Positions 1-23,114 of a stretch of 64,000 nucleotides of DNA are shown one piece after another. The DNA is from Acanthopagrus schlegelii (taxonomy: Eukaryota), in NCBI GenBank assembly GCA_041753875.1, contig CM085492.1, positions 12,319,563 to 12,383,562 on the forward strand. The letters are read 5' to 3'. The notes below the pieces were generated by a model, which did not search any database, was not told the origin of the DNA, and saw only the letters and a program-made list of their open reading frames with translations. The translations under genes and the position numbers were made by a program. Every line of letters starts with the position of its first letter. The first letter of the stretch is position 1.

Positions 1-2
1 AA

Positions 3-7083: not shown

Positions 7084-7131
7084 ATGGAGGCGTGTATGAT
7101 GAAGCCAGAAGTCAAAAAGAAACCAAAGCCG
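7084..7131 (+). CDS. Large gene exon 1 (coding part): MEACMMKPEVKKKPKP.
   Basis: ATG in a good Kozak context (gaaggATGg) directly after acceptor tctctcag. Donor is gtgaga. In frame with all downstream exons. Confidence 0.5.
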
Positions 7132-7286
7132 GTGAGAATACCTACAGCTAACACAAAACACTGAACTAACTCAAAACACAGTCTGAGTATTGTAATTTTA
7201 TTTTCGCATACCAACTACAGATGTAATTATAACCTGCTGTATCATATATTATACGGCACACACTCAGTTCTCTTCTCTGTTCACAG

Positions 7287-7313
7287 CCTAAACCACCTCC
7301 AAAACCTGCAGAG
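7287..7313 (+). CDS. Exon 2: PKPPPKPAE.
   Basis: Acceptor ttcacag, donor gtactg, phase 0, 27 nt. Confidence 0.55.
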
Positions 7314-7465
7314 GTACTGTGATAAAGCTTTGATTATCAATGTTACCAAGTCAGTCATGAGTTTGCCTGTTTGCTGAAGTGTTTGAACAGGACTTGAGGA
7401 TGTTTTTAGGAGTGATTTCAGGATTTTGAAGCAAAGCAGCACACTCGAGTAAACTATCTTTACAG

Positions 7466-7534
7466 GCGAAAAGAAATGACCCAGAGAGACATGAGAAAAC
7501 ACATCCTCTGGTGCCTCCACGACCGACAGACTCT
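7466..7534 (+). CDS. Exon 3: AKRNDPERHEKTHPLVPPRPTDS.
   Basis: Acceptor tttacag, donor gtaagt, 69 nt, phase 0. Confidence 0.6.
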
Positions 7535-8363
7535 GTAAGTTGTCTCTGACCTGGAAGATGCTACTGATTTTTTAGAGACCAACAGTTTTTGTCTGTAATG
7601 TAATTTTCTTTTAACAAATCTAGTTATTAGTCTTGTACTGAGCAGGTGTGGTGGGTCAGTCTTTCTTAAACTGGTGACAGAAAAGTGTTTTGCTTCAACG
7701 TATCAGAATGAAATGGCTATAAAATAAAGTTAAATTGGCTCCTTACTACCCTCACTTTCATGTATTTTGTTGCTTACTTTTTACACTGGTTGCACTGGTG
7801 CACTTAACATTTTCATTTAGGCACAGCAGCATATCATCAAGGTGAACCCAATATTAAATTTAACTTAACTTATTATGTAAATGATTATAAACAGGAAAAC
7901 AGAAAAAAAACCCATATTTTTGTCTTCAAAGCGAGCCAGGTACACTGCTGTGAACATTGAAAATGTTTAGTAGCACTTGGCAGACTTTACGGTGCACGTG
8001 CACCCTGGCGCTGACGGGTGTCTGTTTCCACTTCAAACATCTGGAACAACTTAAGTCAATTAGGTAGTCTGTGTTCCAGTGGAGAGGTTTTTGTTCACTC
8101 TTTGAAGATAAACTCTGGGATATTCAATAAAATTCTTACAAAAACACAAAACTATAACTAAGTTGATTGAATGATACTTATCATTACTGTTAAAGGCAGT
8201 TTAAAAAAAAAAAAAGACTTGAAAGAAAAAGCATCACTAGTGTTTTTATTCAAATATATAGTATCTTTTACAAGAGGTGTAAAAGACAAAGGAGAGGAAA
8301 TGAGAATGAGAATTGGCCATTTAAGATTTGAAAGCAAATCAACTTTTTGTGTTTTCTGTGCAG

Positions 8364-8417
8364 GAACTGAATCATACACAGTACCGCACGAAAACAGCAG
8401 CAACAGCAAACAAAGAG
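8364..8417 (+). CDS. Exon 4: ELNHTQYRTKTAATANKE.
   Basis: Acceptor tctgtgcag, donor gtactc, 54 nt. Confidence 0.55.
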
Positions 8418-9054
8418 GTACTCAACGTTCTTTTGAATTGCCATTGTTTATATTTTACTACGATGCATAATCGGGAAACACAGAGATTTTAAAGAGGGGG
8501 AGGGTGCTGTGGTGTTTTTGAGGCTGAAACCAGGTTTCTATCATACCTCTGGTTCAGATCCGGTCACGGATGGGGCTGAAATTTAAGATAATTTTGACTG
8601 TTGATGAATCTGTTGACCTTTTTCTTTTATTGATCAGTGGCAGTTGTTTAGTCTATAAAATGCAGAAAATGGTAAAAAAAAATGTCGATCAGTGTTTCCC
8701 AAAGTGCAAGATAAAATGCTCAGATGTCTTGTTTTGTTCAAAGATATTTCATTTGCTGTCATAGCGGGGTAAAGACACAACAAAATACTTTAAAGAAACT
8801 ATTAATAAATGCCAAATCATAGTTAAAAAGAAACATGACAAACAATGTTTAAATCATGTCGGCATTCCCCTTCAGACCAATGCATTAAACATCACTGTGA
8901 TGATTCAGTGTGTGGCTTTACTTATGAAAATACATATATTCATACTATTAAAACGCTTTTGTGAATTTTATGATGCCGTCATGCAGCGGATACATCTAAA
9001 TAGTCTGATACCATTTTAAAGAAGTGTTTGGTCCCCTCTTCCCATGTGTATCAG

Positions 9055-9135
9055 GTTAAAGAGCACTTGAAACAAAGGGAGACAAAAGTGAAACTGGATG
9101 AAACTCCCATGGTTCCACCCAGACCAACAGACCAG
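9055..9135 (+). CDS. Exon 5: VKEHLKQRETKVKLDETPMVPPRPTDQ. It repeats the VPPRPTD motif of exon 3.
   Basis: Acceptor tgtatcag, donor gtacag, 81 nt. Confidence 0.65.
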
Positions 9136-9358
9136 GTACAGTACCCTCAAATACTCTTAATATCTACTAAAACACATCCATGCACTGAACTATCTATCTA
9201 TCTTAAATAGGAATCAGGAAGAATCTGTAGTTATGCGTTAGAACAGTTTACAGTAAAGAATTGAATGAAGCTACACAAGGTTTCATTTTTCTGTTCCTCT
9301 TCAAAATATCTGTTTTTGTTCCCTCCTGGGCTTTTACTGTGTGTGTGTATGTGTGCAG

Positions 9359-9418
9359 GAAATGAGGGCTACAACCAGGTACAGCCAGCGCAGGAGTGTA
9401 CAGGCTGAGGACACACAG
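9359..9418 (+). CDS. Exon 6: EMRATTRYSQRRSVQAEDTQ.
   Basis: Acceptor gtgtgcag, donor gtatac, 60 nt. Confidence 0.55.
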
Positions 9419-9420
9419 GT

Positions 9421-9438
9421 ATACACACACACACACAC
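9421..9438. repeat. (CA)n microsatellite (intronic).
   Basis: acacacacacacacacaa. Confidence 0.9.
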
Positions 9439-9514
9439 AATTATATCTTGTTCCTCCTCATTTGTTTTTGTTTTTAAATAAAAACACGCTAAGGTCCTTC
9501 CTCTTCCTTATCAG

Positions 9515-9574
9515 AGCTCCAGAACAAATGACCAGTCAGACGTTCCCAAAGATGAAGCAGACTTCATCAAACAG
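9515..9574 (+). CDS. Exon 7: SSRTNDQSDVPKDEADFIKQ.
   Basis: Acceptor ccttatcag, donor gtattc, 60 nt. Confidence 0.55.
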
Positions 9575-10549
9575 GTATTCCTTTTGGAGTCAGTAACTTT
9601 CAGCTCGGACTTAATACAGAATCGAAAAATAATCGTGTCATTGTGTCAACAACAGCAGTCACTTCCAGGCAGACAGCTGGCAGTTGATTTGCATTGTGGA
9701 GATGTGTGATTCCAGCAAACCTGTTTTCTTCCATTTGGCATTTTCAGTCGTAACCGAAGTGTTTAAAGACATATTAAAACACAATGGTCCGACCTGTCTG
9801 ATATTTCTGTTCGGCTGTTTTGCTAGTGTCTTTCATATCTACTCAGTGACATCTAACCTAACTGTTAGTTTGGGCTAACTCAACCTTTAGTTTTCTTCAG
9901 TCCAGCAGGTAAATAAGTTAAGCATTATTGTTAATGAGATAAGAAAAGCATCAAACATGCATTTTCAGATTAATTAAATGTTCACACTTCGTTGATCAGA
10001 GAATGAGACTCAAAAATCGGCTATAATGAGAACAGCTTCAAAACTTAACCTGCTTTACTTGTCCACATTAATGCTTGTTTCTCACTCCTTTCCGTTTTCT
10101 CTCCCAGCAGTGTTATCTGCTTCTTTCAACAGCTGTAATTTTTATAAATGCACCAAAAAACACACCTTGTGTTTAGGATTTTTTTCACCTGCAATTCTGT
10201 TGAAGGTAAACTCTGTGTGGAGGAAGCTTGTTGTTAATAATGTAGCCAATAAACCAACGTACACCATCATGATCAGTGCATTTACAGGAGGGATGTGTTG
10301 CCGGAGAACGTCTGCCTCACTCTGTCTTCAGAGCATGTGTGACAGTAGACAGGATGGAGGAGCGAGGGCGGACTGTCCGGAGTTTTTTCATCGGATAGGG
10401 GGAAAAAAAGAATTAAAGGCTAAAATGGGTTACCAAATATACTTGGGCAGTCATTAGTATACCCTGGTGTTCAGCCAAAACTAAGTATATGTGTGGGATA
10501 CACTGTTTATACACTGTCTTCATCTTTATGTCCATGTGTTTTGTTGCAG

Positions 10550-10615
10550 AGTGATCAGACGGTCCTGACTGGGATGTTTCAGCGGAGCCGAAAAGAAAAA
10601 ACACCTACGTTTACT
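10550..10615 (+). CDS. Exon 8: SDQTVLTGMFQRSRKEKTPTFT, a degenerate B-type repeat exon.
   Basis: Acceptor ttgttgcag, donor gtaagc, 66 nt. Confidence 0.6.
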
Positions 10616-11109
10616 GTAAGCGATGCACCTGCAGCTCTTCTCTGCACAAAACATTTAATTATTATGCGTTTTATTCATTTTAGATTTTGGAGTAGAGCTG
10701 TGTTCTGGCCTTGACGCCACCTTTTCTAATAGTGGCACACTTTTTGAGTTAATTAAACTGCCGCAGCTTGACAGGCTCCTGGTGGCAAACGGGTGTGTGT
10801 GGGTGTGTACACAAATGAACAATAGGCATGTAGTTAGACAAACCTTAGGAGTGTATCAGATCCCGCTAGAATGAGTCAGTGTTGTAACCCATCAGATCAA
10901 AGAGAATGTTATAATTATCAAATAGAGGAAAAAAGAGGCACTAAGTATAAACATGTCATGGGAAAAATGTAATAAACACAAAACTATAGAATGTTTTATA
11001 GACTCTCTGTGCAGCACCGTAGTTACTGTGTTTAAAGCTGAATTTTTTTCATAATGCAGGTGTTGAATCAGCAGTTATTGAGTTTATCTGATTTTTTTTT
11101 CTTCATCAG

Positions 11110-11187
11110 AGTTATGTGTTCGATGACTCTGACAAAAAGGAAAAAACTGATGATGTTCCTGCCAAACAGGCTTCTGGCAGCAAACCG
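11110..11187 (+). CDS. Exon 9: SYVFDDSDKKEKTDDVPAKQASGSKP.
   Basis: Acceptor cttcatcag, donor gtatgt, 78 nt. Confidence 0.6.
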
Positions 11188-11416
11188 GTATGTGTGCTTG
11201 TCTTTGTATCTTTCAGTGAACAGACTTTGTCTTTCAACCAGTTTTGTGAGGACATTTTGGCTGGTTCTCCGGACTTCAAAGGACTGTTGGAAAGTTTTAT
11301 GGTTATGGTCAGATCAAGTTTAGATCTGGGTTAGACATTTAGTTCTGACAGTTACAGATAGGGTAAGGCAATATGCATTATGTCATTGAATGTCTTCACT
11401 AGTGATGCAGATCTGT

Positions 11417-11417
11417 G

Positions 11418-11446
<29 letters not shown>
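11417..11446. repeat. (GT)n microsatellite (intronic).
   Basis: gtgtgtgtgtgtgtgtgtgtgtgtgtgt. Confidence 0.9.
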
Positions 11447-11449
<3 letters not shown>

Positions 11450-11494
11450 CACTGTTGATCAGCTGGTTTGTGACATGTGACTATGATCTAACAG

Positions 11495-11545
11495 GGCGGT
11501 CTGAAGGGAGTAATGAAAGGGTTGCAATTCAAGTCGTCACCAAAG
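11495..11545 (+). CDS. Exon 10: GGLKGVMKGLQFKSSPK, a degenerate B-type exon.
   Basis: Acceptor tctaacag, donor gtatga, 51 nt. Confidence 0.6.
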
Positions 11546-12165
11546 GTATGAAACACCGTCTGCTTTGGTGTTTTCTGCTGGTGGTGGCTGCAGTATTTTA
11601 CAGAGTTTTTGTTTTTTTTAACATGGAAATACTTGTTCTTGGGTGGTGGTGGTGTTGATGGTAGCGGTTTTCATTTTAACTTGTTCGTGAACTGAGACAT
11701 CCCGGGTTCACAACCAGCCAGGGGCCTTTGTTGTCTGCCCTTGACTTTCTAATAAAGGCCCCAAAACAGAAAATGTTTATGCCACTGTTGATGTTTCAAA
11801 CCTACAGTTTCACAACTTGACAAAGTGACATGTGTGACTTATGAGTCAAGTATCCTTGCCTCAGTTTAATTTGTTGTTCAACTACTTATTGTTCCTTTTT
11901 AAGAATTTAAGTTTGTGAAAATTCTTATTTATCAAAGTTATTTAAACCTTAAAGGACTTTTGACACATTTTATGTTCCACTTGAAATAGAACCTATTGTA
12001 TTCATGAAGCAGCAGTAAAGGAATGATGATAAGTTGACTGGAAGCAATCAGATGATCTTAATGAAATTTTAAGCATCTATTTGATTGATGTCCTTTCTTG
12101 TCTGGTTGTTTTGATGGAAAAAGTACAGGATGATCATATTGTGCTGAAAATAATTGTTCTCAAAG

Positions 12166-12270
12166 GCCAGCAGAGAGCCGAGTCCAGACCCGAGCGCAGA
12201 GGAAGCAGCCTCCGAAAAGGAACAATCCGTAGAAAAAAACAAGCAGGAGAAGAATGTGAAACCCAAAGAG
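12166..12270 (+). CDS. Exon 11: ASREPSPDPSAEEAASEKEQSVEKNKQEKNVKPKE.
   Basis: Acceptor ctcaaag, donor gtaaga, 105 nt. Confidence 0.6.
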
Positions 12271-12587
12271 GTAAGAGATTAACAACCGTGTCTGACTCCC
12301 TTCTCTCATGTTAACACGCTAGTTCTGCTTTTTCAAAACAAATTAGAAGTGACAGGGGAACAACAAAGTGGATATGTATTCTTTTGAAAATGAGATTATT
12401 TTAAAAGTTCACTTCCTTTTAATGTGCAAACGACACTAGAGAAGCCACATAATAAGATTAATTCTAAATTAACATAAATTTTAACAGTGCTCAATTGCGC
12501 AACAGTTCAGTTTCTGTGAGGTAAACATAAAGGCATCTTGTCATTAGATGAGTAGACATCAGATTTTTTTCTCAATCTGTGTTTCAG

Positions 12588-12659
12588 GACATAGGAGATC
12601 TGATTGCTGGAATGTTCCGGAAATCTCCCAGAGAGAAATCACCGTCTCCAGCAGTGACG
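12588..12659 (+). CDS. Exon 12: DIGDLIAGMFRKSPREKSPSPAVT, a B-type repeat exon.
   Basis: Acceptor gtgtttcag, donor gtaaca, 72 nt. Confidence 0.65.
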
Positions 12660-12747
12660 GTAACATCGACTCTTCTGCTCCTTTTCTGAACGTTAACTTT
12701 CACTGTCATCGTCTTGTTGCCTTACGTGTTGTTTTGCTGTTTGCCAG

Positions 12748-12816
12748 GTCAGCAAAGCTGACTGCGATCCGGAAGATAATGAAGAAGCAGATAAGAAGAG
12801 TTCCGAACAATCCCAA
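12748..12816 (+). CDS. Exon 13: VSKADCDPEDNEEADKKSSEQSQ.
   Basis: Acceptor tttgccag, donor gtaggt, 69 nt. Confidence 0.55.
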
Positions 12817-13639
12817 GTAGGTCTCGTTTTATTGGCCTTATGTTTCTGAAGCGTTCGTGATATCACTCGCCCATCTCATGGACCCGATACAGTTGGATTT
12901 TAGCAAAAGTACTGACTGTATTGGCTGCCACTGATGACTTGACAGCTCTCCAAAAATTAAGCAAAATTGCTTCCTGGTGGCTGGCTGCAGTGAGTGGGGC
13001 ATGAACCAAACTAAATACTCAAAGTACATGTCAAATAACATTTGTCCAAACATAACTTCTGTCATTTTGAGTAGGTGGTTCTGATAAGTGAATGACTTAT
13101 TTGAGACATAAAAATGGCATATGATATCACGTGGCAGCAGAGCCCCGCTTGCCACTTAGGCCAAAGATGTACTTGCTTTTAACCACACATCCGGGTATGC
13201 ACGAGTCCTGCGAGATGTGGAGTGTAGGTCCAGTATGGGGACATGTCAGCAGCAGGGACAACAACAGAACAACAAGCAAACGTATGCCCTCTAGTTTTAT
13301 CCTCCAGTAAAAAACATTGTATGTAGGCACTTATGTGACCATCTTTGTTAACAATTCAGCCAGTTGTCTATGTGAACATATGGTTCTAAACAAGTAAATG
13401 TCCGGCCTTAGTCAGGTGGGTGTATATGAGGTATCTCAATACCAAGCTCCACTGTCCTATCACTGCTGCGTAGACTTTTGTTTTCCATCTGTCTTGCTAG
13501 TGAAGCTTAATTTCACCAGACAGACACATAGAAGACTTATGATTTAATCAGAATTTCAGGTGTTTTGTTGTATTTTTATGTATGTTATCACAAATGCAAA
13601 AAGAAAAAAAAGCATAAATAATTACTGTATTGTTCATAG

Positions 13640-13708
13640 GGAAGAGGAGGCTTGTTCTCTGGCATCCTTAAGAAACACAATAAAACAGCAGATGAGGCAC
13701 CTGCGCAG
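13640..13708 (+). CDS. Exon 14: GRGGLFSGILKKHNKTADEAPAQ (B-type).
   Basis: Acceptor tgttcatag, donor gtgagt, 69 nt. Confidence 0.7.
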
Positions 13709-13825
13709 GTGAGTAAGAATAGCCTCCTCTTTCTTAGAATACAAAATGAACATCTGTTGATACTTTTCATTATTTTTTTGTGTGTTTTTTCATTTTTTAT
13801 TGTTTTTTTTACATTTGTGTTTCAG

Positions 13826-13894
13826 GACAGTCTGAGTGTCAACAGTGAGCTGTCTGCCAGCAGCGACAGTCTGTCTGAAAGCAACAGCAACAAG
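13826..13894 (+). CDS. Exon 15: DSLSVNSELSASSDSLSESNSNK (A-type).
   Basis: Acceptor gtgtttcag, donor gtgaga, 69 nt. Confidence 0.75.
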
Positions 13895-14026
13895 GTGAGA
13901 AGTTCTGTGTCACAGTGCAGATAAAGTTATCTTTAAGTACAGTGTACACACAGATTAGCAGTTCGTCATGCAGAAAAGCCCCTCACTGACCTTCCATAAC
14001 TGAGCCTTTGCTTTTGTCTGTTTCAG

Positions 14027-14098
14027 GAAAAAGGAGGAATATTCAGCGGGATGTTCAAGAAGTCTCCGAAACCAGCAGAAGCTGCTCAGACTGATGAG
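14027..14098 (+). CDS. Exon 16: EKGGIFSGMFKKSPKPAEAAQTDE (B-type, canonical).
   Basis: Acceptor ctgtttcag, donor gtgatg, 72 nt. Confidence 0.8.
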
Positions 14099-14201: not shown

Positions 14202-14264
14202 GACCAACAGGCTCTACAAGAGAATTTGTCAGGCAGTAATGATAATCTGTCTGAAAACACAAAG
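14202..14264 (+). CDS. Exon 17: DQQALQENLSGSNDNLSENTK (A-type).
   Basis: Acceptor tcttctag, donor gtgagc, 63 nt. Confidence 0.75.
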
Positions 14265-14375: not shown

Positions 14376-14447
14376 GAGAAAGGAGGAATTTTCAGCGGGA
14401 TTCTCAGAAAGTCTCCCAAGCTTCCAGGAGAGGGAACGCCGGGGCAG
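14376..14447 (+). CDS. Exon 18: EKGGIFSGILRKSPKLPGEGTPGQ (B-type).
   Basis: Acceptor gtcaccag, donor gtagaa, 72 nt. Confidence 0.8.
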
Positions 14448-14992: not shown

Positions 14993-15055
14993 GATAAAGA
15001 GTCGCTGCAAACGGACCCATCAGACAGTAATGACACTAATGAGAACGGCACCAAA
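14993..15055 (+). CDS. Exon 19: DKESLQTDPSDSNDTNENGTK (divergent A-type).
   Basis: Acceptor tttgtttcag, donor gtaagg, 63 nt. Confidence 0.6.
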
Positions 15056-15649: not shown

Positions 15650-15727
15650 GAGAAAGGAGGAGGAAGTGTTTTCAGTGGGATGTTCAAGAAATCTCCCAAA
15701 CTGTCTGAGGCCCCCCGACTGAAGGAG
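15650..15727 (+). CDS. Exon 20: EKGGGSVFSGMFKKSPKLSEAPRLKE (B-type).
   Basis: Acceptor atgtttcag, donor gtaaaa, 78 nt. Confidence 0.8.
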
Positions 15728-16139: not shown

Positions 16140-16199
16140 GAAGCAGAGACGTTACACAGTGAGCTCTCTGCCAGCACTGACAGCCTGACGGAGAACAAG
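16140..16199 (+). CDS. Exon 21: EAETLHSELSASTDSLTENK (A-type).
   Basis: Acceptor tgtgtttag, donor gtgagt, 60 nt. Confidence 0.75.
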
Positions 16200-16395
16200 G
16201 TGAGTCTTCATGATGGAAGTGACAGTGACGGATCCTCCCGCGCACCCACAGAAACTCCATGAGTCACCGTGACTCACATGATCAGCAACACTAATGTGGG
16301 AAAATATCTGCAGCTCTGTCGCTGGATAATCTTCAATCTGGAATTCAAGAAAATAATTTGTCAGTTTCATTTAACATGTTTTCTGCTCGGTGTAG

Positions 16396-16452
16396 GAAAA
16401 AGGCGGTTTGTTCAGCGGACTCCTCAGAAAGACTCCAAAAACAGCCGTAGAG
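16396..16452 (+). CDS. Exon 22: EKGGLFSGLLRKTPKTAVE (B-type).
   Basis: Acceptor ggtgtag, donor gtacac, 57 nt. Confidence 0.8.
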
Positions 16453-16781
16453 GTACACTGACTCAAATCCAAGTTTCTTTGCTTTCAGGCAGACACAGAA
16501 TGGAAACACCATCTAATCCAACCACCTTGATGGTTTCAATGTCAATGTCATTCCTACAACCTCATTTGTTGCTTGTACTCAATTGAATCACCCATCCTTT
16601 ATGCTATGTTTAGAAATAACAAAATAAATGGAGCACAGCTAAGTATGTGTGGCAGTGTGCTCAAATGCTGTAATGTAGAAGTTGAATTGAAATTTTTACA
16701 CATTCTTCTACAGATTTATTTTTTGTAACTCTTTCCTGTGGAGCTACTTTCCGTTTCTGACAGACTGAATTCTTGTTTCAG

Positions 16782-16850
16782 GAGAATCTTTCGGCACGGA
16801 AAGAACTTTCAGCCAGCAACGACAGTCTGTCCGAGACCGCCAACACCAAG
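16782..16850 (+). CDS. Exon 23: ENLSARKELSASNDSLSETANTK (A-type).
   Basis: Acceptor cttgtttcag, donor gtcagt, 69 nt. Confidence 0.75.
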
Positions 16851-17266
16851 GTCAGTTTTTGGTATAAAAGCACACTTTGTCACTTCATTTGAAAGCTGAT
16901 ACATTAAGAAATTGAGCAGGACATCTTGTTCCAGTTTCCATAAACAAATCTGATAATAGTGTTTTTGTGCAGATTTCCTGAAATGTAACCCCAGGTTGAA
17001 CAATGTGAACAATGGGGAAAAATGAAGCACTGAGAACAAAAGAGAGGCTGACATTTTTTCTTGGGAATTTTTTTGTTGTTTAGAACAGCAGGACTTACGA
17101 CTAGAGCTGAAACGTTTAGTCAACTGGAAATTATTCTGCAACTACTTTGATTAGTTGGTGTCATTTAAATGTTTAATTGTTAAATAATTTTTAAATTTCA
17201 AATGAAAAGTCAAAAAAATGTCAGGTGATGTATTTATGTTCTGTAAGCACTTCAACTGTGTTTCAG

Positions 17267-17338
17267 GAGAAAGGAGGTGCGTTCAGTGGAATATTCAAGA
17301 AGTCATCAAGACTTGCAGACGGTCATCACACTGAAGAC
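17267..17338 (+). CDS. Exon 24: EKGGAFSGIFKKSSRLADGHHTED (B-type).
   Basis: Acceptor gtgtttcag, donor gtaaga, 72 nt. Confidence 0.8.
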
Positions 17339-18163
17339 GTAAGAAGTGGCTTCTCTGTTTTTCTGTCTCCATCCAGTCATCCCTTTAGAAGTCTTGAACT
17401 TTAACTCTTTAACTTGTTCACTTTTCAAGCTGCATATTGCCAAAATGTCATCAGAGTACACTGAGTACACAAGTGACTTGAAGGCTGCTTGTTTGAATCC
17501 CAGAAACAACATGAGTAACTTATTTTAAGTTAACATAAGGTTTCTTCCAGGACATGGTTTGGCCTAGGTAGCAAGCCATCCAGATCTGGAAATGATGTAA
17601 TTCTTATCACCTGCACTTTAAATGCTTTAAAGGAGGACTCTGTCCATCAGTCCAACAAAGTTACAGCAGCAACATTTAAAAGAAAAGGATCAAAAATTAA
17701 TGCACCAGAATCAGAGATGCTGTCTTCTTAACCCCACGTTTTCTTCTTCCTTGTCTAAATCAAATGCATACATTATCTAAAGTCTAACTTAAACACTGAC
17801 GGTTTGATCAGAGATCCAGATGTTTTATACTGGTAGCATCTAATGAAGCCACGAGCTGCTAAGCTTAAGAGAGAAAAACAAGAGCTTTTCAGACCTCAGT
17901 AGCCCACTTCTCTCTAACTCCACACTGCCAGATTTTTTAAATTTTAAAACTTGTAGTCAAGACTGACTTAAGTGTCACTTGCTGTGATACTCCCGCAACA
18001 CCTCTAAAGAAACATAAATGTGTAATCTGGGGAGTTTCCCTTGAATCTGACATGGTAGCGGTAAAAGAGCAGTAAAAGTGCTTGGTTCCCCCACACTGTT
18101 ACTGATGACATGTCAATTGTCTGTAGTGTGTCAAAAGCTCTGATTGATTTAATCTTTTCTCAG

Positions 18164-18229
18164 GAAAAGCAATCAGAAGATGATGAGCTCTCAGGAAGCA
18201 CTGAAGCGCTGTCCGAGAACAACACAAAG
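18164..18229 (+). CDS. Exon 25: EKQSEDDELSGSTEALSENNTK (A-type).
   Basis: Acceptor tttctcag, donor gtgaat, 66 nt. Confidence 0.75.
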
Positions 18230-18310
18230 GTGAATTCTTTTTACACATCATTTAGAAGCCCGTCCTGACTAACTGTAAGAGGGAGCCCTCACTGTCTGAA
18301 TATGTTTCAG

Positions 18311-18382
18311 GAAAAAGGAGGAATATTTGCTGGAATGTTCAAGAAAGCCCCCAAACCTGCAGAAGCTGCTCAGCCTGAGGAG
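18311..18382 (+). CDS. Exon 26: EKGGIFAGMFKKAPKPAEAAQPEE (B-type).
   Basis: Acceptor atgtttcag, donor gtaaaa, 72 nt. Confidence 0.8.
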
Positions 18383-18794
18383 GTAAAAGTCTAATTTACT
18401 TCATTATTAGCCTGTCTATTAATTGTTTAAATAAAATACAGCTCTCGATCTTCATATATTAGTTTTCTGAAAATGTAAGTTGTAAAGCATCATTGCCTGT
18501 TTGTTAGCAAGGTATCTGAGAACGTTATGATGTTTTGAAAAGAGATTTCCTAACTTTTCTTCACATCTTCTCCATGTTCACATGAACTACTTCACTGAAA
18601 ATCTGGCAAATGTGTCGCATCATTGACTATGATAATGCAAAAATATGCACGGATGTTGATTTCATATTTTCACTAAGAAATATACTGTGAACCGATAGGT
18701 GCCACTCAAATTACTGCCACCTTTTTTATCAATGTAACGACTGAAATAATGTATTCCCCACGCAACATGTTTATAACCTGATGACTTTTAACAG

Positions 18795-18854
18795 GACGAG
18801 TCTGCTGACAAAGAGCTCTCAGCCAGCAATGAGAATTTATCAGAGGGCAAACAG
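18795..18854 (+). CDS. Exon 27: DESADKELSASNENLSEGKQ (A-type).
   Basis: Acceptor tttaacag, donor gtcagt, 60 nt. Confidence 0.75.
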
Positions 18855-18943
18855 GTCAGTGAGTTAAGTCCAAGATGGGTAATGAGTTTGAGTCTCTCAG
18901 CCCATCATGAAGCCTTTTTTCTGTCTTTTGTCTGTTTCATCAG

Positions 18944-19018
18944 GAGAAAGGTGGAGGTTTGTTCAGAGGCCTCAACAAAAAGCCTCCCAAAGCGTCTGGA
19001 GAAAAAACAGAGTCACCG
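18944..19018 (+). CDS. Exon 28: EKGGGLFRGLNKKPPKASGEKTESP (B-type).
   Basis: Acceptor tttcatcag, donor gtgagt, 75 nt. Confidence 0.8.
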
Positions 19019-19108
19019 GTGAGTTTGTGTTTTCTGGAAGTGCCATTAGTCTCGTAACTTCAACAAAATTTTCAACTGTTTCATTAAACATCTGTTTCTC
19101 TGTTTCAG

Positions 19109-19174
19109 GATGCAGAGGCTCGGAAAGAGTTGTCTGGCAGCAACGACGACCTGTCTGAGAATAACACCACTAAG
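19109..19174 (+). CDS. Exon 29: DAEARKELSGSNDDLSENNTTK (A-type).
   Basis: Acceptor ctgtttcag, donor gtgagc, 66 nt. Confidence 0.75.
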
Positions 19175-19255
19175 GTGAGCAGCATAATGTGACAAAAAAC
19201 ATGCAGATGAAATGTCTTCAGAGGGAACGTTCACTGACACCAGATTATTTTTCAG

Positions 19256-19324
19256 GAGAAAAACATTTTCAGCAACATGTTCAAGAAGCAACAGAAACCA
19301 GCAGAGGGCGCTGCAGCAGAGAAG
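19256..19324 (+). CDS. Exon 30: EKNIFSNMFKKQQKPAEGAAAEK (B-type).
   Basis: Acceptor tttttcag, donor gtgcca, 69 nt. Confidence 0.75.
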
Positions 19325-19417
19325 GTGCCATGATGTGATATAATTGACTGAATACATTCGGTTTATTGAGAATGGATGTTAATATTGTAATGAACTGTTT
19401 TCTGGCTTTGAATTCAG

Positions 19418-19483
19418 GAGCTGGAGGTGAACAGTGAAAGTCAGATATCTGGTAGCTGTGAGAATCTGTCTGATGCCCCAAAG
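19418..19483 (+). CDS. Exon 31: ELEVNSESQISGSCENLSDAPK (A-type).
   Basis: Acceptor gaattcag, donor gtactt, 66 nt. Confidence 0.7.
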
Positions 19484-19602
19484 GTACTTTTCGTTCTTTA
19501 AAAAGACTCTTTTCTCTGTTTTTCTGTCTTGGAGTCTCTGTAGTTTTATTAACATGTTTCTGAATATTTTCATTTGAGAGAAATAACTCAAATCTGTTTT
19601 AG

Positions 19603-19668
19603 GAGAAAAAAGGAGGCCTGGCTGGCATCTTCAAAAGATCAGGCAGCATCGACAACCTGTTTGATGAG
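19603..19668 (+). CDS. Exon 32: EKKGGLAGIFKRSGSIDNLFDE (B-type).
   Basis: Acceptor ctgttttag, donor gtcagt, 66 nt. Confidence 0.75.
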
Positions 19669-19852
19669 GTCAGTGTGAACCTAGTGAGCACAGTATCACA
19701 GTAGCAGCCCTACTACAATTAAGGCACCCATGAGCAGATACTTTTACTTCTGATTATAGTTACCTATAGCATTTTCAATGCATTAAAAGTTATTTTTCAT
19801 AACTTTTCAACAACTTAACTTGCATGCTTTTTTCTTTTTTTTTACTCACCAG

Positions 19853-19924
19853 GAGAAAGGCGGGCTGTTCAGTGGACTCCGTAAGAAAACACCCAAAGCG
19901 TCTGGAGATGAGGCGGCTGTAGAG
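19853..19924 (+). CDS. Exon 33: EKGGLFSGLRKKTPKASGDEAAVE (B-type; a second consecutive B exon).
   Basis: Acceptor tactcaccag, donor gtgagt, 72 nt. Confidence 0.8.
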
Positions 19925-20008
19925 GTGAGTGTGTGTGACCTCGGACACTGTTAGGATCACTCAGCATCATTGTCCATGTTTGTATACTGTGAAATTCTCT
20001 TTTGTCAG

Positions 20009-20074
20009 GACAAAGATGATCAGATGGAGCTGACGGCGAGTAATGACAGTCTGTCAGAAACCAACAACACTAAG
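20009..20074 (+). CDS. Exon 34: DKDDQMELTASNDSLSETNNTK (A-type).
   Basis: Acceptor ttttgtcag, donor gtactg, 66 nt. Confidence 0.75.
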
Positions 20075-20296
20075 GTACTGTGTTGAGATTTTTTTTTTTT
20101 TTAAGCATAAAAGGAACTTCTGCACTATAAACTTTATTCAAATTCACTCTGACATGCGTAAGTTTTCTCATGTACATTTAAAAACACATTCTTTTAATGC
20201 TGTTTATTTTTTATTGTACTTTTTAGCTATGACACATTACAAATAAACCTGGTGTAGTCTTCAACGCCACTTACTGTCTGTCTTGTCTGTTTTCAG

Positions 20297-20365
20297 GAGA
20301 AAAGTATTTTTAGTGGCATGTTCAAGAAGACTCAGAAACCAACAGAGGGGGCTACAACGGATGAG
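20297..20365 (+). CDS. Exon 35: EKSIFSGMFKKTQKPTEGATTDE (B-type).
   Basis: Acceptor ctgttttcag, donor gtgcag, 69 nt. Confidence 0.75.
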
Positions 20366-20439
20366 GTGCAGTAAATGACCCTTTAATGTTCAAAATGTAT
20401 TTCTGTTCGTCTCTTTTTGATCTTTGATTTTCTCTGCAG

Positions 20440-20511
20440 GAGTTAAACTGGGATGAGGATAATACGTTGTATGGCAGTGGTGAAAATCTCTTAGAAACAA
20501 CCACATCAAAG
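20440..20511 (+). CDS. Exon 36: ELNWDEDNTLYGSGENLLETTTSK (divergent A-type).
   Basis: Acceptor ttctctgcag, donor gtaaaa, 72 nt. Confidence 0.65.
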
Positions 20512-20605
20512 GTAAAAATGTGGTCCAACAAACACAATCTCAGTCTGTTTTTATTCTGTTCTGCAGCTGAATATCAACTGTTAACAAGTGTTTCATACAT
20601 TTCAG

Positions 20606-20677
20606 GAGAAGAGTGGTGGACTGGCAGGGATCTTCAGAAAGTCTCCAAAACCAGCTCCTCGATCGATCGCTACAGAG
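20606..20677 (+). CDS. Exon 37: EKSGGLAGIFRKSPKPAPRSIATE (B-type).
   Basis: Acceptor catttcag, donor gtgacc, 72 nt. Confidence 0.75.
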
Positions 20678-20825
20678 GTGACCAAGGTTTTTTTTTTTGT
20701 GCGGTTGTATGTATGATTATTCATGATTGAGATTTCTGCGGAAGCGCTCGTTTAAATTTTTGTGCTAACATTGTTTAAAAATAACCTTCAGCAAGTTCAC
20801 ACAGAGGTTCCGTCGTTTTTTCCAG

Positions 20826-20888
20826 GATCCCCTCACTGCCTCTAAGGAACTATCCGCCAGCTGCGACAGCCTCGTAGAAACTGCAGAG
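20826..20888 (+). CDS. Exon 38: DPLTASKELSASCDSLVETAE (A-type).
   Basis: Acceptor ttttttccag, donor gtgaga, 63 nt. Confidence 0.7.
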
Positions 20889-21231
20889 GTGAGAGATACT
20901 CAGAATCTGTGGATGCACTTGGATGCAACTTGTTTTGTTTATTTTAACCCATTGAGACAGAGGATGCCCATTTAAAAAAAAAACATTATAAAACCTTAGG
21001 CATTGTTTGAAAACACCTCCTGAAACCTGAGGCATAACTGAAAGATGTGACAGAACTGTCAGTGTTCACTAAAACCTTTATTTCTCAGCTTCTGGAGAGG
21101 AAAGAACATGAAATAAAGAAACATTTGAATTACTGTGAGAGTTGTGTCCAACAACCATGCCAAAAAGTTTCAGTGATAGTAATTTCTGACAAAATTCTTG
21201 TTTTGTTCCGTCTATTAATTTTATTTTAAAG

Positions 21232-21294
21232 GATGACCTTCCTCGATTATCGGCCAGCACAGATAATCTTGTAGAAGCTTCAAGTGCCACGAAG
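21232..21294 (+). CDS. Exon 39: DDLPRLSASTDNLVEASSATK (A-type; a second consecutive A exon).
   Basis: Acceptor ttattttaaag, donor gtgagt, 63 nt. Confidence 0.7.
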
Positions 21295-21382
21295 GTGAGT
21301 TAATTATTCTGCTTGACTGTATTAGTTTATTTTCCCATTTAAAATACTTGAATTAATGCTCCTTGTTTTATTTTTTGAAAAG

Positions 21383-21442
21383 GAGAAAAAAGGAGGGTTC
21401 GCTGGAATCTTTAGAAGAACGCCTAAAACAATTGAACATCAG
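21383..21442 (+). CDS. Exon 40: EKKGGFAGIFRRTPKTIEHQ (last B-type).
   Basis: Acceptor tttgaaaag, donor gtatgt, 60 nt. Confidence 0.75.
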
Positions 21443-21754
21443 GTATGTATATCACTATTACAGATGTGTACAATCATTAGTAGTTAGCACAACTAATACT
21501 GGTCACAGTGATTATATTTGATCTAACCCAGAAAAAAAGTAGGTTTATGATGTAGATAAATTGCCAATCTGTGAATTTAAGATGTAAGATTGTCAGTGAG
21601 GCGAATGAAAATGCTCTAAATACATAAAACGCATTTAGGGATTTGATTTGAGCATTGAGAGCTGGTTAGTTGATCCCTATAGACTCCTGGATCATGTGTG
21701 TGTGCAGCTGCTAAACAATCCTCTCTGCTGCCCATTTTCTGTACCAATTTTCAG

Positions 21755-21826
21755 GAAAGTGCAGACATGGAGTCTCCACAAGGAGGCGGGCTGAAACGCA
21801 GGAGAACCATCAAGAAAAAAAGACGA
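21755..21826 (+). CDS. Exon 41: ESADMESPQGGGLKRRRTIKKKRR (strong basic cluster).
   Basis: Acceptor caattttcag, donor gtgagt, 72 nt. Confidence 0.65.
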
Positions 21827-21939
21827 GTGAGTTGTCGTTTATTCACTGTAACATCCAGAGACACGATTATTGCAAACTGTGTTTTTTTTTTTCTTCTCTT
21901 CTGGTTGTTAAATCCCTCTTCTCTTTTTTGTTTTCTCAG

Positions 21940-22002
21940 GTTACTTCATTCCGAGTCAAGAAAACGCTTCCCAAAGTACCCAAACTTAATCTGACATCTC
22001 AG
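21940..22002 (+). CDS. Exon 42: VTSFRVKKTLPKVPKLNLTSQ.
   Basis: Acceptor gttttctcag, donor gtatct, 63 nt. Confidence 0.6.
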
Positions 22003-22322
22003 GTATCTACTGATTCCTTCTAGTTATTCCTGAGTTACTCACTTTCTCACTGCTGCTGCATCACTGCAGAGAAACTTGGTCCTGATATCAAGTCCCATGT
22101 CACCTTTTTAAAAAAATATTTGATCGCTTGAAAGGCTTGGAAAAAAAAAAAAGCCTTGAATAAAGTTTACGAACAGGTTGTTTTATGTTGCTGCTTCTTA
22201 TTAAGGTGCATAAGTTATGAGGATCAGTTGAAAAGGTGATTAGAAATCATGCTGGGTCATTTTTACAGGCACCCACATTCTCCACAAATATCTCTTTTTT
22301 ATTTATATTTCCTTACTTTATT

Positions 22323-22418
22323 TACTGATTATTATTATTGTTGTTATTATTATTATTATTATTATTGTTGTTATTGTTATTGTTATTATTATTATTGTTG
22401 TTGTTGTTGTTGTTATAT
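22323..22418. repeat. Compound (ATT)n/(GTT)n microsatellite, ~95 bp, in the intron just upstream of exon 43.
   Basis: ttattattattgttgttattattattatt...gttgttgttgttgtt. Confidence 0.9.
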
Positions 22419-22460
22419 TTTGCTGAGTTAATGAGATTGAGATTATTTTTTAATCCACAG

Positions 22461-22523
22461 AGTTCAGATAAAATGACTATTATTGAGGAGGCTGTTGAGC
22501 TGCAGGAGCTGAACCCAGCACAG
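22461..22523 (+). CDS. Exon 43: SSDKMTIIEEAVELQELNPAQ.
   Basis: Acceptor taatccacag, donor gtaaac, 63 nt. Confidence 0.6.
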
Positions 22524-22545
22524 GTAAACACAATGATGTTATTAA

Positions 22546-22567
22546 GTGTGTGTGTGTGTGTGTGTGG
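22546..22567. repeat. (GT)n microsatellite.
   Basis: gtgtgtgtgtgtgtgtgtgtgg. Confidence 0.85.
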
Positions 22568-23039
22568 TAAATGTGATATTCTGTTCAGTTTCATACCTTT
22601 TAAAGCATAACTGACACAATGAAAATGTTGAATATGTTGTTTTGTTCACACATTGCATCCTAGCATGTTTTGCATGATATTCGAAACTTGTAACTTATGA
22701 TAATTTGCTCACTGAATGCTTGTAAGAGTCTGAGCCCACATTAAACAGTGAAATGATTAGTTTAAGGGGCAGTATGTAAGAACTGGCATATTTCTAATTA
22801 TATTATAGGTAACATGATACAATTCATGTCATGTAATTATCTTTTTCATCATCTCTAGACATCTGCAGCCCTTGAAGTGGCGACAGTTAGCATTTAGCAT
22901 GTAGCTAGTGATCACTGAACAGACTTACACCTGTGATGCCAACAGGAATACAGGAAACTGTGATGACAGTAGTTACACAAAATGACTCTTTAAAGTGAAT
23001 TTAATGTCATAATGTTGTGTTGTTGTGTTTGTTTTCTAG

Positions 23040-23114
23040 GAGAGCTCAGTGGAGGTTCAGCCTGTGGAGATGGCATCTTTCCCCACTGAAGAAAACCCAC
23101 TGGAAGCTGACGAG
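23040..23114 (+). CDS. Exon 44: ESSVEVQPVEMASFPTEENPLEADE.
   Basis: Acceptor gttttctag, donor gtgtgt, 75 nt. This is the last of 44 consecutive exons whose lengths are divisible by 3. Confidence 0.6.

What the first reader, a model, noticed from the sequence alone, without database searches (positions are those of the whole stretch)
7084..23114. 44 consecutive symmetric phase-0 exons (every length divisible by 3) give a fully modular, cassette-like coding region of ~950 codons
Exon lengths are 48, 27, 69, 54, 81, 60, 60, 66, 78, 51, 105, 72, 69, 69, 69, 72, 63, 72, 63, 78, 60, 57, 69, 72, 66, 72, 60, 75, 66, 69, 66, 66, 72, 66, 69, 72, 72, 63, 63, 60, 72, 63, 63, 75. Any subset can be skipped without breaking the frame. 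Only the last three exons before the final exon (40+52+415 nt) break this pattern, and together they restore the frame. This predicts extensive in-frame alternative splicing or isoform-length variation, and makes the locus prone to exon-level copy-number change.
Basis: seen in the sequence. Interest (0 to 1): 0.7.

Follow-up and report, generated by a model that had tools for sequence, protein, structure and literature searches.

The report
Phase-0 repeat-exon array in fish apold1a
The 44 in-frame mini-exons are real: they form the disordered, repeat-built front end of a fish apolipoprotein-L-domain gene (apold1a), made by repeatedly duplicating a two-exon unit. This is a tidy example of a known way genes grow, not a new mechanism.

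Summary
Observation confirmed. All 44 exon lengths were reproduced exactly with AG/GT-bounded phase-0 exons at 7084-23114 (+ strand). They are followed by exons of 40, 52 and 415 nt and a 1.6-kb last exon. The 1682-aa product aligns collinearly (76% identity, 100% coverage) with teleost proteins named apold1a / si:rp71-1g18.13 and carries a Pfam ApoL domain.

Exons 14-40 alternate two types. Type A is basic-aromatic ('EKGGLFSGMFKKSPKP', 14 copies). Type B is acidic and Ser-rich ('ELSASNDSLSETNNTK', 13 copies). Exons 8, 10 and 12 look like degenerate A copies. The region is predicted disordered.

The same all-phase-0 layout holds in tarpon (32 exons), Anableps (41) and trout (about 29), and tarpon and trout keep the same 40/52/415 exons. 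The array is therefore ancient in teleosts. It is best explained by tandem duplication of an A+B exon pair.

- Annotated isoforms in other species differ by whole in-frame exons; this was mapped exactly in trout.
- Motif and exon numbers vary between species, and Anableps and tarpon carry recent duplications.
- In this window the introns share no similarity and the longest exact repeat is 25 nt, so the locus is not a good recombination substrate now.
- No transcript data exist for this species.

This is a known kind of architecture (collagen, titin PEVK). The gene itself is uncharacterised.

The parts
7084..7131 (+). Exon 1, coding part (48 nt, ATG at 7084; acceptor AG at 7077-7078): MEACMMKPEVKKKPKP
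   Evidence: N-terminus conserved in orthologues
7287..7313 (+). Exon 2 (27 nt) PKPPPKPAE, phase 0-0
   Evidence: A 10-aa block at the corresponding position of the protein is the only difference between the two Salmo salar isoforms; orthology was not tested.
7466..7534 (+). Exon 3 (69 nt) with PLVPPRP (PxxPxR, SH3-ligand-like)
8364..8417 (+). Exon 4 (54 nt)
9055..9135 (+). Exon 5 (81 nt), second PMVPPRP motif
9359..9418 (+). Exon 6 (60 nt)
   Evidence: The two L. crocea isoforms differ by 5 aa at the end of the corresponding exon.
9515..9574 (+). Exon 7 (60 nt)
10550..10615 (+). Exon 8 (66 nt), degenerate A-type (LTGMFQRSRK)
11110..11187 (+). Exon 9 (78 nt), acidic linker
11495..11545 (+). 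Exon 10 (51 nt), degenerate A-type (GGLKGVMKGLQFK)
12166..12270 (+). Exon 11 (105 nt), acidic/Ser-Pro linker
12588..12659 (+). Exon 12 (72 nt), A-type (DLIAGMFRKSPR)
12748..12816 (+). Exon 13 (69 nt), acidic linker
13640..13708 (+). Exon 14 (69 nt), A-type
13826..13894 (+). Exon 15 (69 nt), B-type
14027..14098 (+). Exon 16 (72 nt), A-type
14202..14264 (+). Exon 17 (63 nt), B-type
14376..14447 (+). Exon 18 (72 nt), A-type
14993..15055 (+). Exon 19 (63 nt), degenerate B-type
15650..15727 (+). Exon 20 (78 nt), A-type
16140..16199 (+). Exon 21 (60 nt), B-type
16396..16452 (+). Exon 22 (57 nt), A-type
16782..16850 (+). Exon 23 (69 nt), B-type
17267..17338 (+). Exon 24 (72 nt), A-type
18164..18229 (+). 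Exon 25 (66 nt), B-type
18311..18382 (+). Exon 26 (72 nt), A-type
18795..18854 (+). Exon 27 (60 nt), B-type
18944..19018 (+). Exon 28 (75 nt), A-type
19109..19174 (+). Exon 29 (66 nt), B-type. L. crocea has an extra A+B pair after it.
19256..19324 (+). Exon 30 (69 nt), A-type (EKNIFSNMFKK)
19418..19483 (+). Exon 31 (66 nt), B-type
19603..19668 (+). Exon 32 (66 nt), A-type variant (GGLAGIFKR)
19853..19924 (+). Exon 33 (72 nt), A-type
20009..20074 (+). Exon 34 (66 nt), B-type
20297..20365 (+). Exon 35 (69 nt), A-type
20440..20511 (+). Exon 36 (72 nt), B-type
20606..20677 (+). Exon 37 (72 nt), A-type variant
20826..20888 (+). Exon 38 (63 nt), B-type
21232..21294 (+). Exon 39 (63 nt), B-type
21383..21442 (+). 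Exon 40 (60 nt), A-type variant (GGFAGIFRR); last repeat
21755..21826 (+). Exon 41 (72 nt), polybasic (GGGLKRRRTIKKKRR)
   Evidence: conserved columns in A1
21940..22002 (+). Exon 42 (63 nt) VTSFRVKKTLPK...
22461..22523 (+). Exon 43 (63 nt), acidic
23040..23114 (+). Exon 44 (75 nt) ESSVEVQPVEM...; last phase-0 exon
   Evidence: The similar 25-aa block (ESTVELQPVEM...) is missing from O. latipes isoform X21.
23293..23332 (+). Exon 45 (40 nt, phase 0 to 1), start of the conserved ApoL-side region (ENDELMEWWNTVK)
   Evidence: The same 40-nt exon is present in tarpon and trout.
23469..23520 (+). Exon 46 (52 nt, phase 1 to 2)
24048..24462 (+). Exon 47 (415 nt, phase 2 to 0), ApoL domain with hydrophobic hairpin (aa 1058-1109)
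   Evidence: 415 nt also in tarpon and trout
24615..26222 (+). Terminal exon: rest of the ApoL domain (hydrophobic segment aa 1211-1236) plus a Glu/Lys/Arg-rich tail of about 390 aa; stop codon ends at 26222

Best explanation
The interval is the N-terminal coding region of the teleost gene annotated elsewhere as apold1a (si:rp71-1g18.13). The gene encodes a 1682-aa protein with four parts:
- a 978-aa intrinsically disordered N-terminal region;
- an ApoL membrane-hairpin domain;
- a highly charged C-terminal tail;
- no signal peptide-like hydrophobic segment in the N-terminal region.

The run of phase-0 exons is the footprint of how the N-terminal region was built. A two-exon cassette was duplicated in tandem many times. 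Exon A (about 23 aa) is basic-aromatic, 'EKGG[ILV]FSG[MIL]FKKSPKP'. Exon B (about 22 aa) is acidic and Ser-rich, 'xxxELSASNDSLSExNTK'. Both are bounded by phase-0 introns. Only copies whose boundaries lie between codons keep the downstream ApoL domain in frame, so every surviving copy is symmetric. The non-repeat exons at either end (1-7 and 41-44) are also phase 0.

Shown here: the array is old and conserved across teleosts, individual exons are orthologous between species, and A+B pairs are gained or lost in particular lineages. Annotated isoforms in other species remove whole exons in frame.

Inferred, not shown: the array acts as a multivalent string of short linear motifs tethered to a membrane by the ApoL hairpin, and its number of motifs is set by exon number (in evolution) and possibly by exon skipping (in expression).
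For:
- Gene identity: Pfam ApoL E=5e-31, 108.7 bits against a 25.9-bit cut-off, aa 1014-1268. Best hit is L. crocea at 76% identity and 100% coverage. Many hits are named apold1a or si:rp71-1g18.13. The alignment is collinear over every exon.
- Repeat structure: 12 A-type and 10 B-type DNA copies at 60-85% identity, confined to exons. HMMs built from this window's own A and B exons (so their recovery is circular) gave no further hit anywhere else in 7000-24000; the one added hit was exon 12 for A. Exon order from 14 to 40 is ABABABABABABABABABAABABABBA.
- Age: no intron-intron similarity.
- Conservation of the architecture: tarpon has 32 phase-0 exons then 40/52/415; Anableps has 41 phase-0 exons; trout has about 29 phase-0 exons then 40/52/415.
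- Gain and loss: A counts 2-18 and B counts 0-13; recent duplications in Anableps and tarpon; an extra pair in L. crocea.
- In-frame isoforms in orthologues, mapped to whole exons in trout.
- Disorder: AlphaFold2 on the Anableps N-terminal protein with a 32-sequence alignment gave mean pLDDT 41.9, no residue at or above 70 and no secondary structure. The charge-hydropathy calculation places aa 1-978 on the disordered side. The highest 19-residue hydropathy in the N-terminal region is 0.15.
- Motif cores (F, G, F, K; L, S, S, L) are at least 90% conserved at aligned positions in 32 teleosts.
- General principle: disordered proteins are enriched in symmetric, tandemly duplicated exons (PMC3632108).
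Against: - There is no transcript evidence for this species, so splice sites and inclusion levels are inferred from sequence and orthology.
- Exons 1-7, 9, 11, 13 and 41-44 show no clear similarity to A or B. Duplication does not explain their phase-0 boundaries directly.
- Orthologue isoforms are computational predictions. Multi-exon skips between near-identical repeats could be read-mapping artefacts.
- The recent duplications in Anableps and tarpon could in part be assembly artefacts.
- The functional reading (multivalent motif array) rests on composition and conservation only. No known motif, Pfam family or solved structure matches the region.
Confidence: 0.8

Rival explanations
1. The array is purely historical. 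It arose by exon duplication, but in this species all 44 exons are constitutively included, as in fibrillar collagen genes. The 'cassette-like' modularity then has no consequence for expression.
For: All 44 exons have canonical AG/GT sites, most with pyrimidine-rich acceptors. Each exon is individually conserved in the L. crocea protein. Motif cores are conserved at orthologous positions, which suggests each copy is under selection. Phase symmetry alone does not imply skipping.
Against: Orthologues in at least seven species have annotated isoforms that remove whole exons in frame. Several acceptors and donors in the window are weak: exon 11 'caaag', exon 39 'ttaaag', exon 40 'gaaaag', and donors 'gtgcca' and 'gtgcag' of exons 30 and 35.
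Confidence: 0.3
2. Two separate genes were joined by mistake: a repeat-protein gene (exons 1-44) and a short APOLD1-like gene (exons 45-48).
For: The Anableps annotation splits the locus into an 866-aa N-terminal model with no Pfam domain and an adjacent 755-aa ApoL model. Mammalian APOLD1 is described without any such extension (PMC8557400, PMC11726835).
Against: All but one of the 120 listed homologues combine the region with a precomputed ApoL hit, and many cover 95-100% of the query, which spans both parts. Tarpon and trout models run from the phase-0 exons straight into the 40/52/415 exons in one frame. Exon 44 ends in phase 0, and exon 45 continues the frame into a conserved 'ENDELMEWWNTV' segment. 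The 40-nt exon 45 has an acceptor and no start codon of its own. The tandem paralogue has the same combined architecture.
Confidence: 0.05
3. The pattern is chance, or an artefact of a reader who chose only frame-preserving ORF segments.
For: A reader without tools would naturally favour open, frame-compatible segments. My first greedy search on lengths alone produced many spurious 'exons'.
Against: The probability of such a run with independent exons is 2e-15 to 5e-8. Each exon is matched by orthologue proteins. Independent annotations in three other genomes are also all phase 0. No conserved coding segment was found outside the model.
Confidence: 0.01

Closest known systems
Fibrillar collagen triple-helix exon arrays (e.g. 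COL1A1: about 40 consecutive 45/54/99/108-bp exons); from my own knowledge, not tested here
   Same: A very long uninterrupted run of short phase-0 symmetric exons, each encoding a whole number of repeat units. The run is thought to derive from duplication of an ancestral exon.
   Different: Collagen exons encode Gly-X-Y that folds into a triple helix, and they are largely constitutive. Here two different exon types alternate, lengths vary (57-78 nt), the product is predicted disordered, and orthologues show exon skipping.
Titin PEVK and nebulin repeat exons; 'PPAK motif' is listed among families enriched in symmetric disordered exons (PMC3632108)
   Same: Tandemly duplicated symmetric exons encode a disordered repeat region. 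Isoform length is set by exon skipping, and exon number differs between lineages.
   Different: Those are sarcomeric spring or ruler proteins. Here the array sits in front of an ApoL membrane-hairpin domain, and the repeat is a two-exon unit of opposite charge. Splicing has not been demonstrated for this gene by experiment.
Mammalian APOLD1 / VERGE (PMC8557400, PMC11726835)
   Same: An ApoL-type domain with a flexible hydrophobic hairpin. The source databases name the fish gene apold1a.
   Different: The papers read here describe APOLD1 only through its ApoL-like domains and trace it to amniotes. By my own knowledge the mammalian protein is short (about 250-280 aa). They mention no N-terminal repeat array and no long charged C-terminal tail. 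The array was detected only in teleosts.
Tandem teleost paralogue named 'apolipoprotein L1' by NCBI (e.g. P0155, P0135, P0158)
   Same: The same overall build: A/B-like repeats, a PPRP motif, an ApoL domain and an acidic tail. It lies directly upstream in this window; its last exon ends at 256.
   Different: It is shorter (about 770-1040 aa), has fewer repeats, and the repeats precede rather than follow the PPRP motif. Its exon phases were not examined.

Membership tests
ApoL family (Pfam PF05461) | Match to the family profile above the curated cut-off | tested here: met
   108.7 bits against a 25.9-bit cut-off, E=5e-31, aa 1014-1268, profile positions 42-297 of 298
ApoL family (Pfam PF05461) | Hydrophobic hairpin with membrane-insertion potential (described as the major characteristic of APOLs in PMC11726835) | tested here: met
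   The only segments with 19-residue Kyte-Doolittle mean of 1.4 or more are aa 1058-1109 and aa 1211-1236. Actual membrane insertion was not tested.
Teleost apold1a / si:rp71-1g18.13 orthologue group | Full-length collinear similarity to proteins carrying that name | tested here: met
   Best hit has 76% identity over 100% of the query. Hits named apold1a occur in Gasterosteus, Osmerus, Sardina, Alosa, Chanos and Xiphophorus. Collinear alignment shown.
Teleost apold1a / si:rp71-1g18.13 orthologue group | Shared exon structure at the array-to-ApoL junction | tested here: met
   Exons of 40, 52 and 415 nt with phases 0 to 1, 1 to 2 and 2 to 0 are identical in the window, tarpon and trout.
Teleost apold1a / si:rp71-1g18.13 orthologue group | Orthology to mammalian APOLD1, as the name implies | not tested
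   No tetrapod sequence or synteny was examined. The name is taken from the source databases.
Tandem exon-duplication arrays of symmetric exons encoding disordered repeats | Consecutive exons of one symmetric phase class | tested here: met
   44 in the window; 32, 41 and about 29 in three other teleosts
Tandem exon-duplication arrays of symmetric exons encoding disordered repeats | Sequence similarity between exons of the array | tested here: met
   DNA families D1-D6 are confined to exons. A and B HMM hits have E from 1e-5 to 2e-15 for exons 14-40, plus a weak A hit to exon 12 (E=0.0018). Exons 1-7, 9, 11, 13 and 41-44 show no such similarity.
Tandem exon-duplication arrays of symmetric exons encoding disordered repeats | The encoded region is intrinsically disordered | tested here: met
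   AlphaFold2 mean pLDDT 41.9, 0 residues at or above 70 (orthologue P0109). Charge-hydropathy calculation. Prediction only.
Tandem exon-duplication arrays of symmetric exons encoding disordered repeats | Exon number varies between lineages | tested here: met
   Annotation completeness differs between species.
Cassette-exon alternative splicing of the array | Transcripts of this gene that omit whole exons in frame | tested here: inconclusive
   Seen in annotated isoforms of orthologues and mapped to exact exons in trout. No transcript data for the window's species; not testable with these tools.
Mutually exclusive exon clusters (Dscam-type) | One exon chosen from an array of alternatives that encode the same protein segment | tested here: not met
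   Orthologue proteins contain many copies in series. Isoforms remove contiguous blocks rather than swapping copies.

The most novel reading that the evidence does not exclude
The alternating A/B array could be a previously undescribed, teleost-restricted class of short linear motifs. The candidates I considered are a MARCKS-effector-like or FG-like basic-aromatic motif ('GG-Phi-FSG-Phi-FKK') paired with a phosphorylatable acidic motif ('ELSASNDSLSE'). Such an array would give the membrane-anchored ApoL protein a multivalent binding or condensate-forming arm, with the number of motifs tuned by regulated exon skipping. The motif comparisons come from memory and were not tested.
Probability: 0.15. 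Interest if true: 0.55.

Novelty: new member of a known kind. Interest (0 to 1): 0.3.

Why it matters
The locus is an unusually clean and long example (44 consecutive phase-0 exons) of modular gene growth by tandem duplication of a two-exon unit that encodes disordered motifs. The same process can be seen at several stages in different fish: old and diverged here, recent in tarpon and Anableps.

It also shows that the teleost gene annotated apold1a differs greatly from the short mammalian APOLD1 studied in endothelium. About 75% of the fish protein is disordered sequence (the N-terminal array plus the charged C-terminal tail) that the APOLD1 papers read here do not mention. This should be kept in mind when fish are used to model APOLD1 function.

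It does not reveal a new mechanism.

Tried and rejected
I replaced it with splice-site scoring plus motif and orthologue support.
I used the N-terminal-only orthologue P0109 instead.
- Look-up of O. latipes isoform X5 found no record. Trout X1 worked.
- Hidden or decayed exons: gapped tblastn coverage outside exons was only read-through of short introns. Ungapped tblastn gave only chance-level hits of 29 bits or less. A/B HMM scans of all three forward frames found no copy outside the model. A weak 'B+A-like' match in intron 24 (17567-17737, 24.9 bits) was not confirmed by the HMMs and was dropped.
- Recent duplication in this window: intron all-against-all blastn gave a single 18-nt hit. The tandem-repeat finder found only microsatellites.
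- Known-family identity for the repeats: no Pfam family at E up to 1 for P0109 or P0130. The UniRef label 'FAM21/CAPZIP domain-containing' on P0130 was therefore not reproduced. No PDB sequence match at E up to 10.
- WH2, MARCKS-effector, FG-repeat and CPI-motif resemblances were considered from memory only. None could be tested, and none is claimed.
- Relatives of the array outside teleosts: 65 cluster representatives among 1.84 billion proteins. All 26 that carry a name, of 30 looked up, are teleosts.
- Literature: no paper contains 'apold1a'. The APOLD1 papers read do not mention fish long forms.

Full report
**1. The observation**

The window is eukaryotic DNA of about 38-40% GC, with one purine-rich block of 52% GC at 24-26 kb. 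The exons run from 7084 to 23114 on the + strand. Every exon has an AG acceptor and a GT donor, and every length is a multiple of 3.

The next exons are 40, 52 and 415 nt (23293-23332, 23469-23520, 24048-24462). Their lengths sum to 507 = 3 x 169. The terminal exon is 24615-26222.

Three small corrections apply:
- The 44 exons sum to 2934 nt = 978 codons, not about 950.
- The first 'exon' is only the coding part of an exon whose acceptor lies at 7077-7078.
- That exon holds the ATG, so it is not a skippable cassette.

**2. Is the model real, and is the run more than chance?**

The spliced product is 1682 aa. It aligns collinearly with an annotated protein of Larimichthys crocea at 76% identity over 100% of the query, and every exon is represented. 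Orthologue proteins hit each of the 48 exons by tblastn.

No conserved coding segment lies outside the model. Ungapped tblastn gives only hits of 29 bits or less. HMMs of the two repeat types find no copy outside the predicted exons in any forward frame.

I mapped independent annotations exactly onto their own genomes:
- Tarpon (Megalops atlanticus): 32 consecutive phase-0 exons, then exons of 40, 52 and 415 nt.
- Anableps anableps: 41 consecutive phase-0 exons.
- Rainbow trout: about 29 phase-0 exons, then 40, 52 and 415 nt. One 15-nt 'exon' in my trout map is a seeding artefact.

For a background I used human values from PMC3632108: 46.28% phase-0 introns, and (0,0) exons at 23.75% overall and 35.72% in mostly disordered proteins. 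With these, a run of this length among independent exons has probability between 2e-15 and 5e-8. The exons are not independent, and that is the real explanation (section 4).

**3. What the gene is**

Pfam finds an ApoL domain at aa 1014-1268 (E=5e-31, 108.7 bits against a cut-off of 25.9). The closest homologues are all teleost proteins. Where they are named informatively, the name is apold1a or si:rp71-1g18.13. The other names (futsch, titin-like, myb-like protein X) reflect low-complexity matches.

The protein has three parts:
- A 978-aa N-terminal region encoded by the 44 exons.
- The ApoL region. It contains the only hydrophobic segments in the protein, aa 1058-1109 and 1211-1236.
- A tail of about 390 aa made largely of Glu, Lys and Arg, encoded by the purine-rich terminal exon.

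The N-terminal region has no hydrophobic segment (highest 19-residue hydropathy 0.15). It falls on the disordered side of the charge-hydropathy boundary.

I ran AlphaFold2 on the Anableps protein P0109, which consists of the N-terminal region only, using a 32-sequence alignment. It gave mean pLDDT 41.9, no residue at or above 70, and no secondary structure. No Pfam family matches the region at E up to 1, and no PDB sequence matches it at E up to 10.

**4. Anatomy of the array and its origin**

From exon 14 to exon 40 two exon types alternate:
- Type A: 14 copies, about 23 aa, net charge +1.5, core 'EKGG[ILV]FSG[MIL]FKKSPKP'.
- Type B: 13 copies, about 22 aa, net charge -3.5, six Ser/Thr per exon, core 'ELSASNDSLSExNTK'.

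The order is ABABABABABABABABABAABABABBA. Exons 8, 10 and 12 look like degenerate A copies. They are separated by acidic exons 9, 11 and 13. Exons 3 and 5 share a 'P[LM]VPPRPTD' motif.

DNA similarity between copies is 60-85% and stops at the exon borders. An all-against-all blastn of the introns gives a single 18-nt hit. The longest exact direct repeat in 12-22 kb is 25 nt. The copies in this genome are therefore old.

The simplest account is repeated tandem duplication of an A+B exon pair bounded by phase-0 introns. Only symmetric copies keep the ApoL domain in frame. This is the mechanism PMC3632108 describes as typical for genes of disordered proteins.

Duplication does not directly explain why the non-repeat exons 1-7 and 41-44 are also phase 0. 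That part is consistent with the general enrichment of (0,0) exons in disordered proteins, but I have not explained it further.

**5. Evolutionary behaviour**

The motif cores are at least 90% conserved at aligned positions in 32 teleosts, from eels to percomorphs. Individual copies are thus maintained.

The number of copies nevertheless changes:
- HMM counts per annotated orthologue range from 2 to 18 for A and from 0 to 13 for B. Incomplete models and isoform choice are caveats.
- L. crocea has one extra A+B pair after the counterpart of exon 29.
- Comparing the exon peptide lists by eye, window exons 18-19 and 33-34 (two A+B pairs) have no counterpart in the Anableps model. Anableps in turn has four extra exons (A, B, A, B).
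- Anableps carries a 463-nt duplicate at 99.35% identity that spans three exons and their introns. Tarpon has a 484-nt pair at 95%. Exact repeats reach at least 199 nt in Anableps and 133 nt in tarpon.

Gain and loss therefore happen in units of whole exons, usually pairs. In this window, however, the copies are too diverged to be good substrates for homologous recombination now.

**6. Alternative splicing**

No transcript data can be examined here. Indirectly, annotated isoforms of orthologues differ by in-frame blocks:
- Oryzias latipes: 24, 24 and 25 aa. The 25-aa block, ESTVELQPVEM..., resembles window exon 44.
- Oncorhynchus mykiss: 119 and 16 aa.
- Anguilla rostrata: 120 and 181 aa.
- Simochromis: 23 and 45 aa.
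- Osmerus: 21 and 45 aa.
- Salmo salar: 10 aa.
- L. crocea: 179 aa, plus a 5-aa alternative donor.

Single-residue differences at block junctions also occur; I read them as NAGNAG-type acceptor variation, which I did not test.

In trout I mapped the isoforms onto the genome. X4 omits exactly five whole phase-0 exons (72+69+75+72+69 = 357 nt). X5 additionally omits one 48-nt exon.

These are computational isoform models. Large skips between near-identical repeats may be mapping artefacts.

**7. Distribution and context**

I ran phmmer with the N-terminal-only protein P0109 against 1.84 billion cluster representatives. It found 65 proteins. Of 30 looked up, all 26 that carry a name are teleosts; the other four are unnamed environmental or Logan fragments.

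The hits include a second, shorter family that NCBI names 'apolipoprotein L1'. It also carries A/B-like repeats in front of an ApoL domain. The first 256 nt of the window encode the C-terminus of exactly such a paralogue (68% identity to P0158). The two genes therefore lie in tandem, and the A/B cassette probably predates their duplication.

The searched literature contains no paper with 'apold1a'. Papers on APOLD1 trace it to amniotes and describe only its ApoL-like domains. They do not mention fish or an N-terminal array.

**8. How it most likely works**

Shown: the exon structure, the repeat types, predicted disorder, conservation of the architecture, lineage-specific gain and loss, and in-frame isoforms in orthologue annotations.

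Inferred: the N-terminal region is a cytosolic, multivalent string of short linear motifs of alternating charge. It is tethered to a membrane by the ApoL hairpin. The phase-0 modular encoding lets the number of motifs change without harming the ApoL domain, through exon duplication or loss and possibly through exon skipping.

What the motifs bind is unknown. Resemblances to MARCKS-effector, FG or WH2 motifs come from memory only and were not testable.

**9. Verdict**

The explanation is ordinary in kind: a tandem exon-duplication array of symmetric exons encoding a disordered repeat region, comparable in gene architecture to collagen or titin PEVK. The gene is annotated but uncharacterised. 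It is a new member of a known kind, of modest interest.

Noticed in passing
window 1-256 (+): The window starts inside the last coding exon of another ApoL-family gene. The peptide is GAKSEFAKKIREV...DRIKKAIKKDYENREYL, with the stop codon at 254-256. It is 62-68% identical to the C-termini of teleost proteins that NCBI names 'apolipoprotein L1'. Those proteins also carry A/B-like repeats, so two repeat-bearing ApoL paralogues lie in tandem.
   Followed up: partly
window 7466-7534 and 9055-9135 (exons 3 and 5): A duplicated proline motif, PLVPPRPTDS / PMVPPRPTDQ, fits the class II SH3-ligand pattern PxxPxR. The same motif in the paralogue P0158 gives a weak Pfam p47_phox_C match (E=0.18, below the cut-off).
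   Followed up: no
window 21755-22002 (exons 41-42): A polybasic stretch, GGGLKRRRTIKKKRRVTSFRVKKTLPK. Several of its residues (R, S, F, R, T, P) are at least 90% conserved across 32 teleosts. It could be a nuclear-localisation-like, kinase-site or membrane-binding element; its function is unknown.
   Followed up: no
window 24615-26222: The terminal exon is strongly purine-rich (window 24001-26000: GC 0.516, AT skew 0.35). Beyond the ApoL domain it encodes a Glu/Lys/Arg-rich tail of about 390 aa, with imperfect purine tandem repeats at 26058-26145.
   Followed up: partly
window 34378-34488 and 35671-35745 (+): Downstream coding segments resemble the C-terminal part of the Chanos chanos model P0117 (tblastn E=8e-6 and 0.008). 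Precomputed Pfam hits for P0117 include PF03351; its position within the protein was not checked. P0117 looks like a read-through fusion of apold1a with its neighbour, which would suggest conserved gene order. Pfam found nothing for the window ORF 34264-34725 itself.
   Followed up: partly
window 11414-11445 and 22328-22416: Microsatellites within introns of the array: (TG)16 in intron 9 and an ATT/GTT-rich repeat in intron 42.
   Followed up: no
L003 (Oncorhynchus mykiss) 9258-16913: The trout orthologue has a 7.6-kb intron in the middle of the repeat array, far longer than its neighbours. It contains a 57-nt exact repeat pair (10504 and 15408). Its content (transposon or unannotated exons) was not examined.
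   Followed up: no
L002 (Anableps anableps) 2001-30153: The Anableps annotation splits the locus into an 866-aa N-terminal model without an ApoL domain and an adjacent 755-aa ApoL model. This is probably an annotation break rather than two genes.
   Followed up: partly
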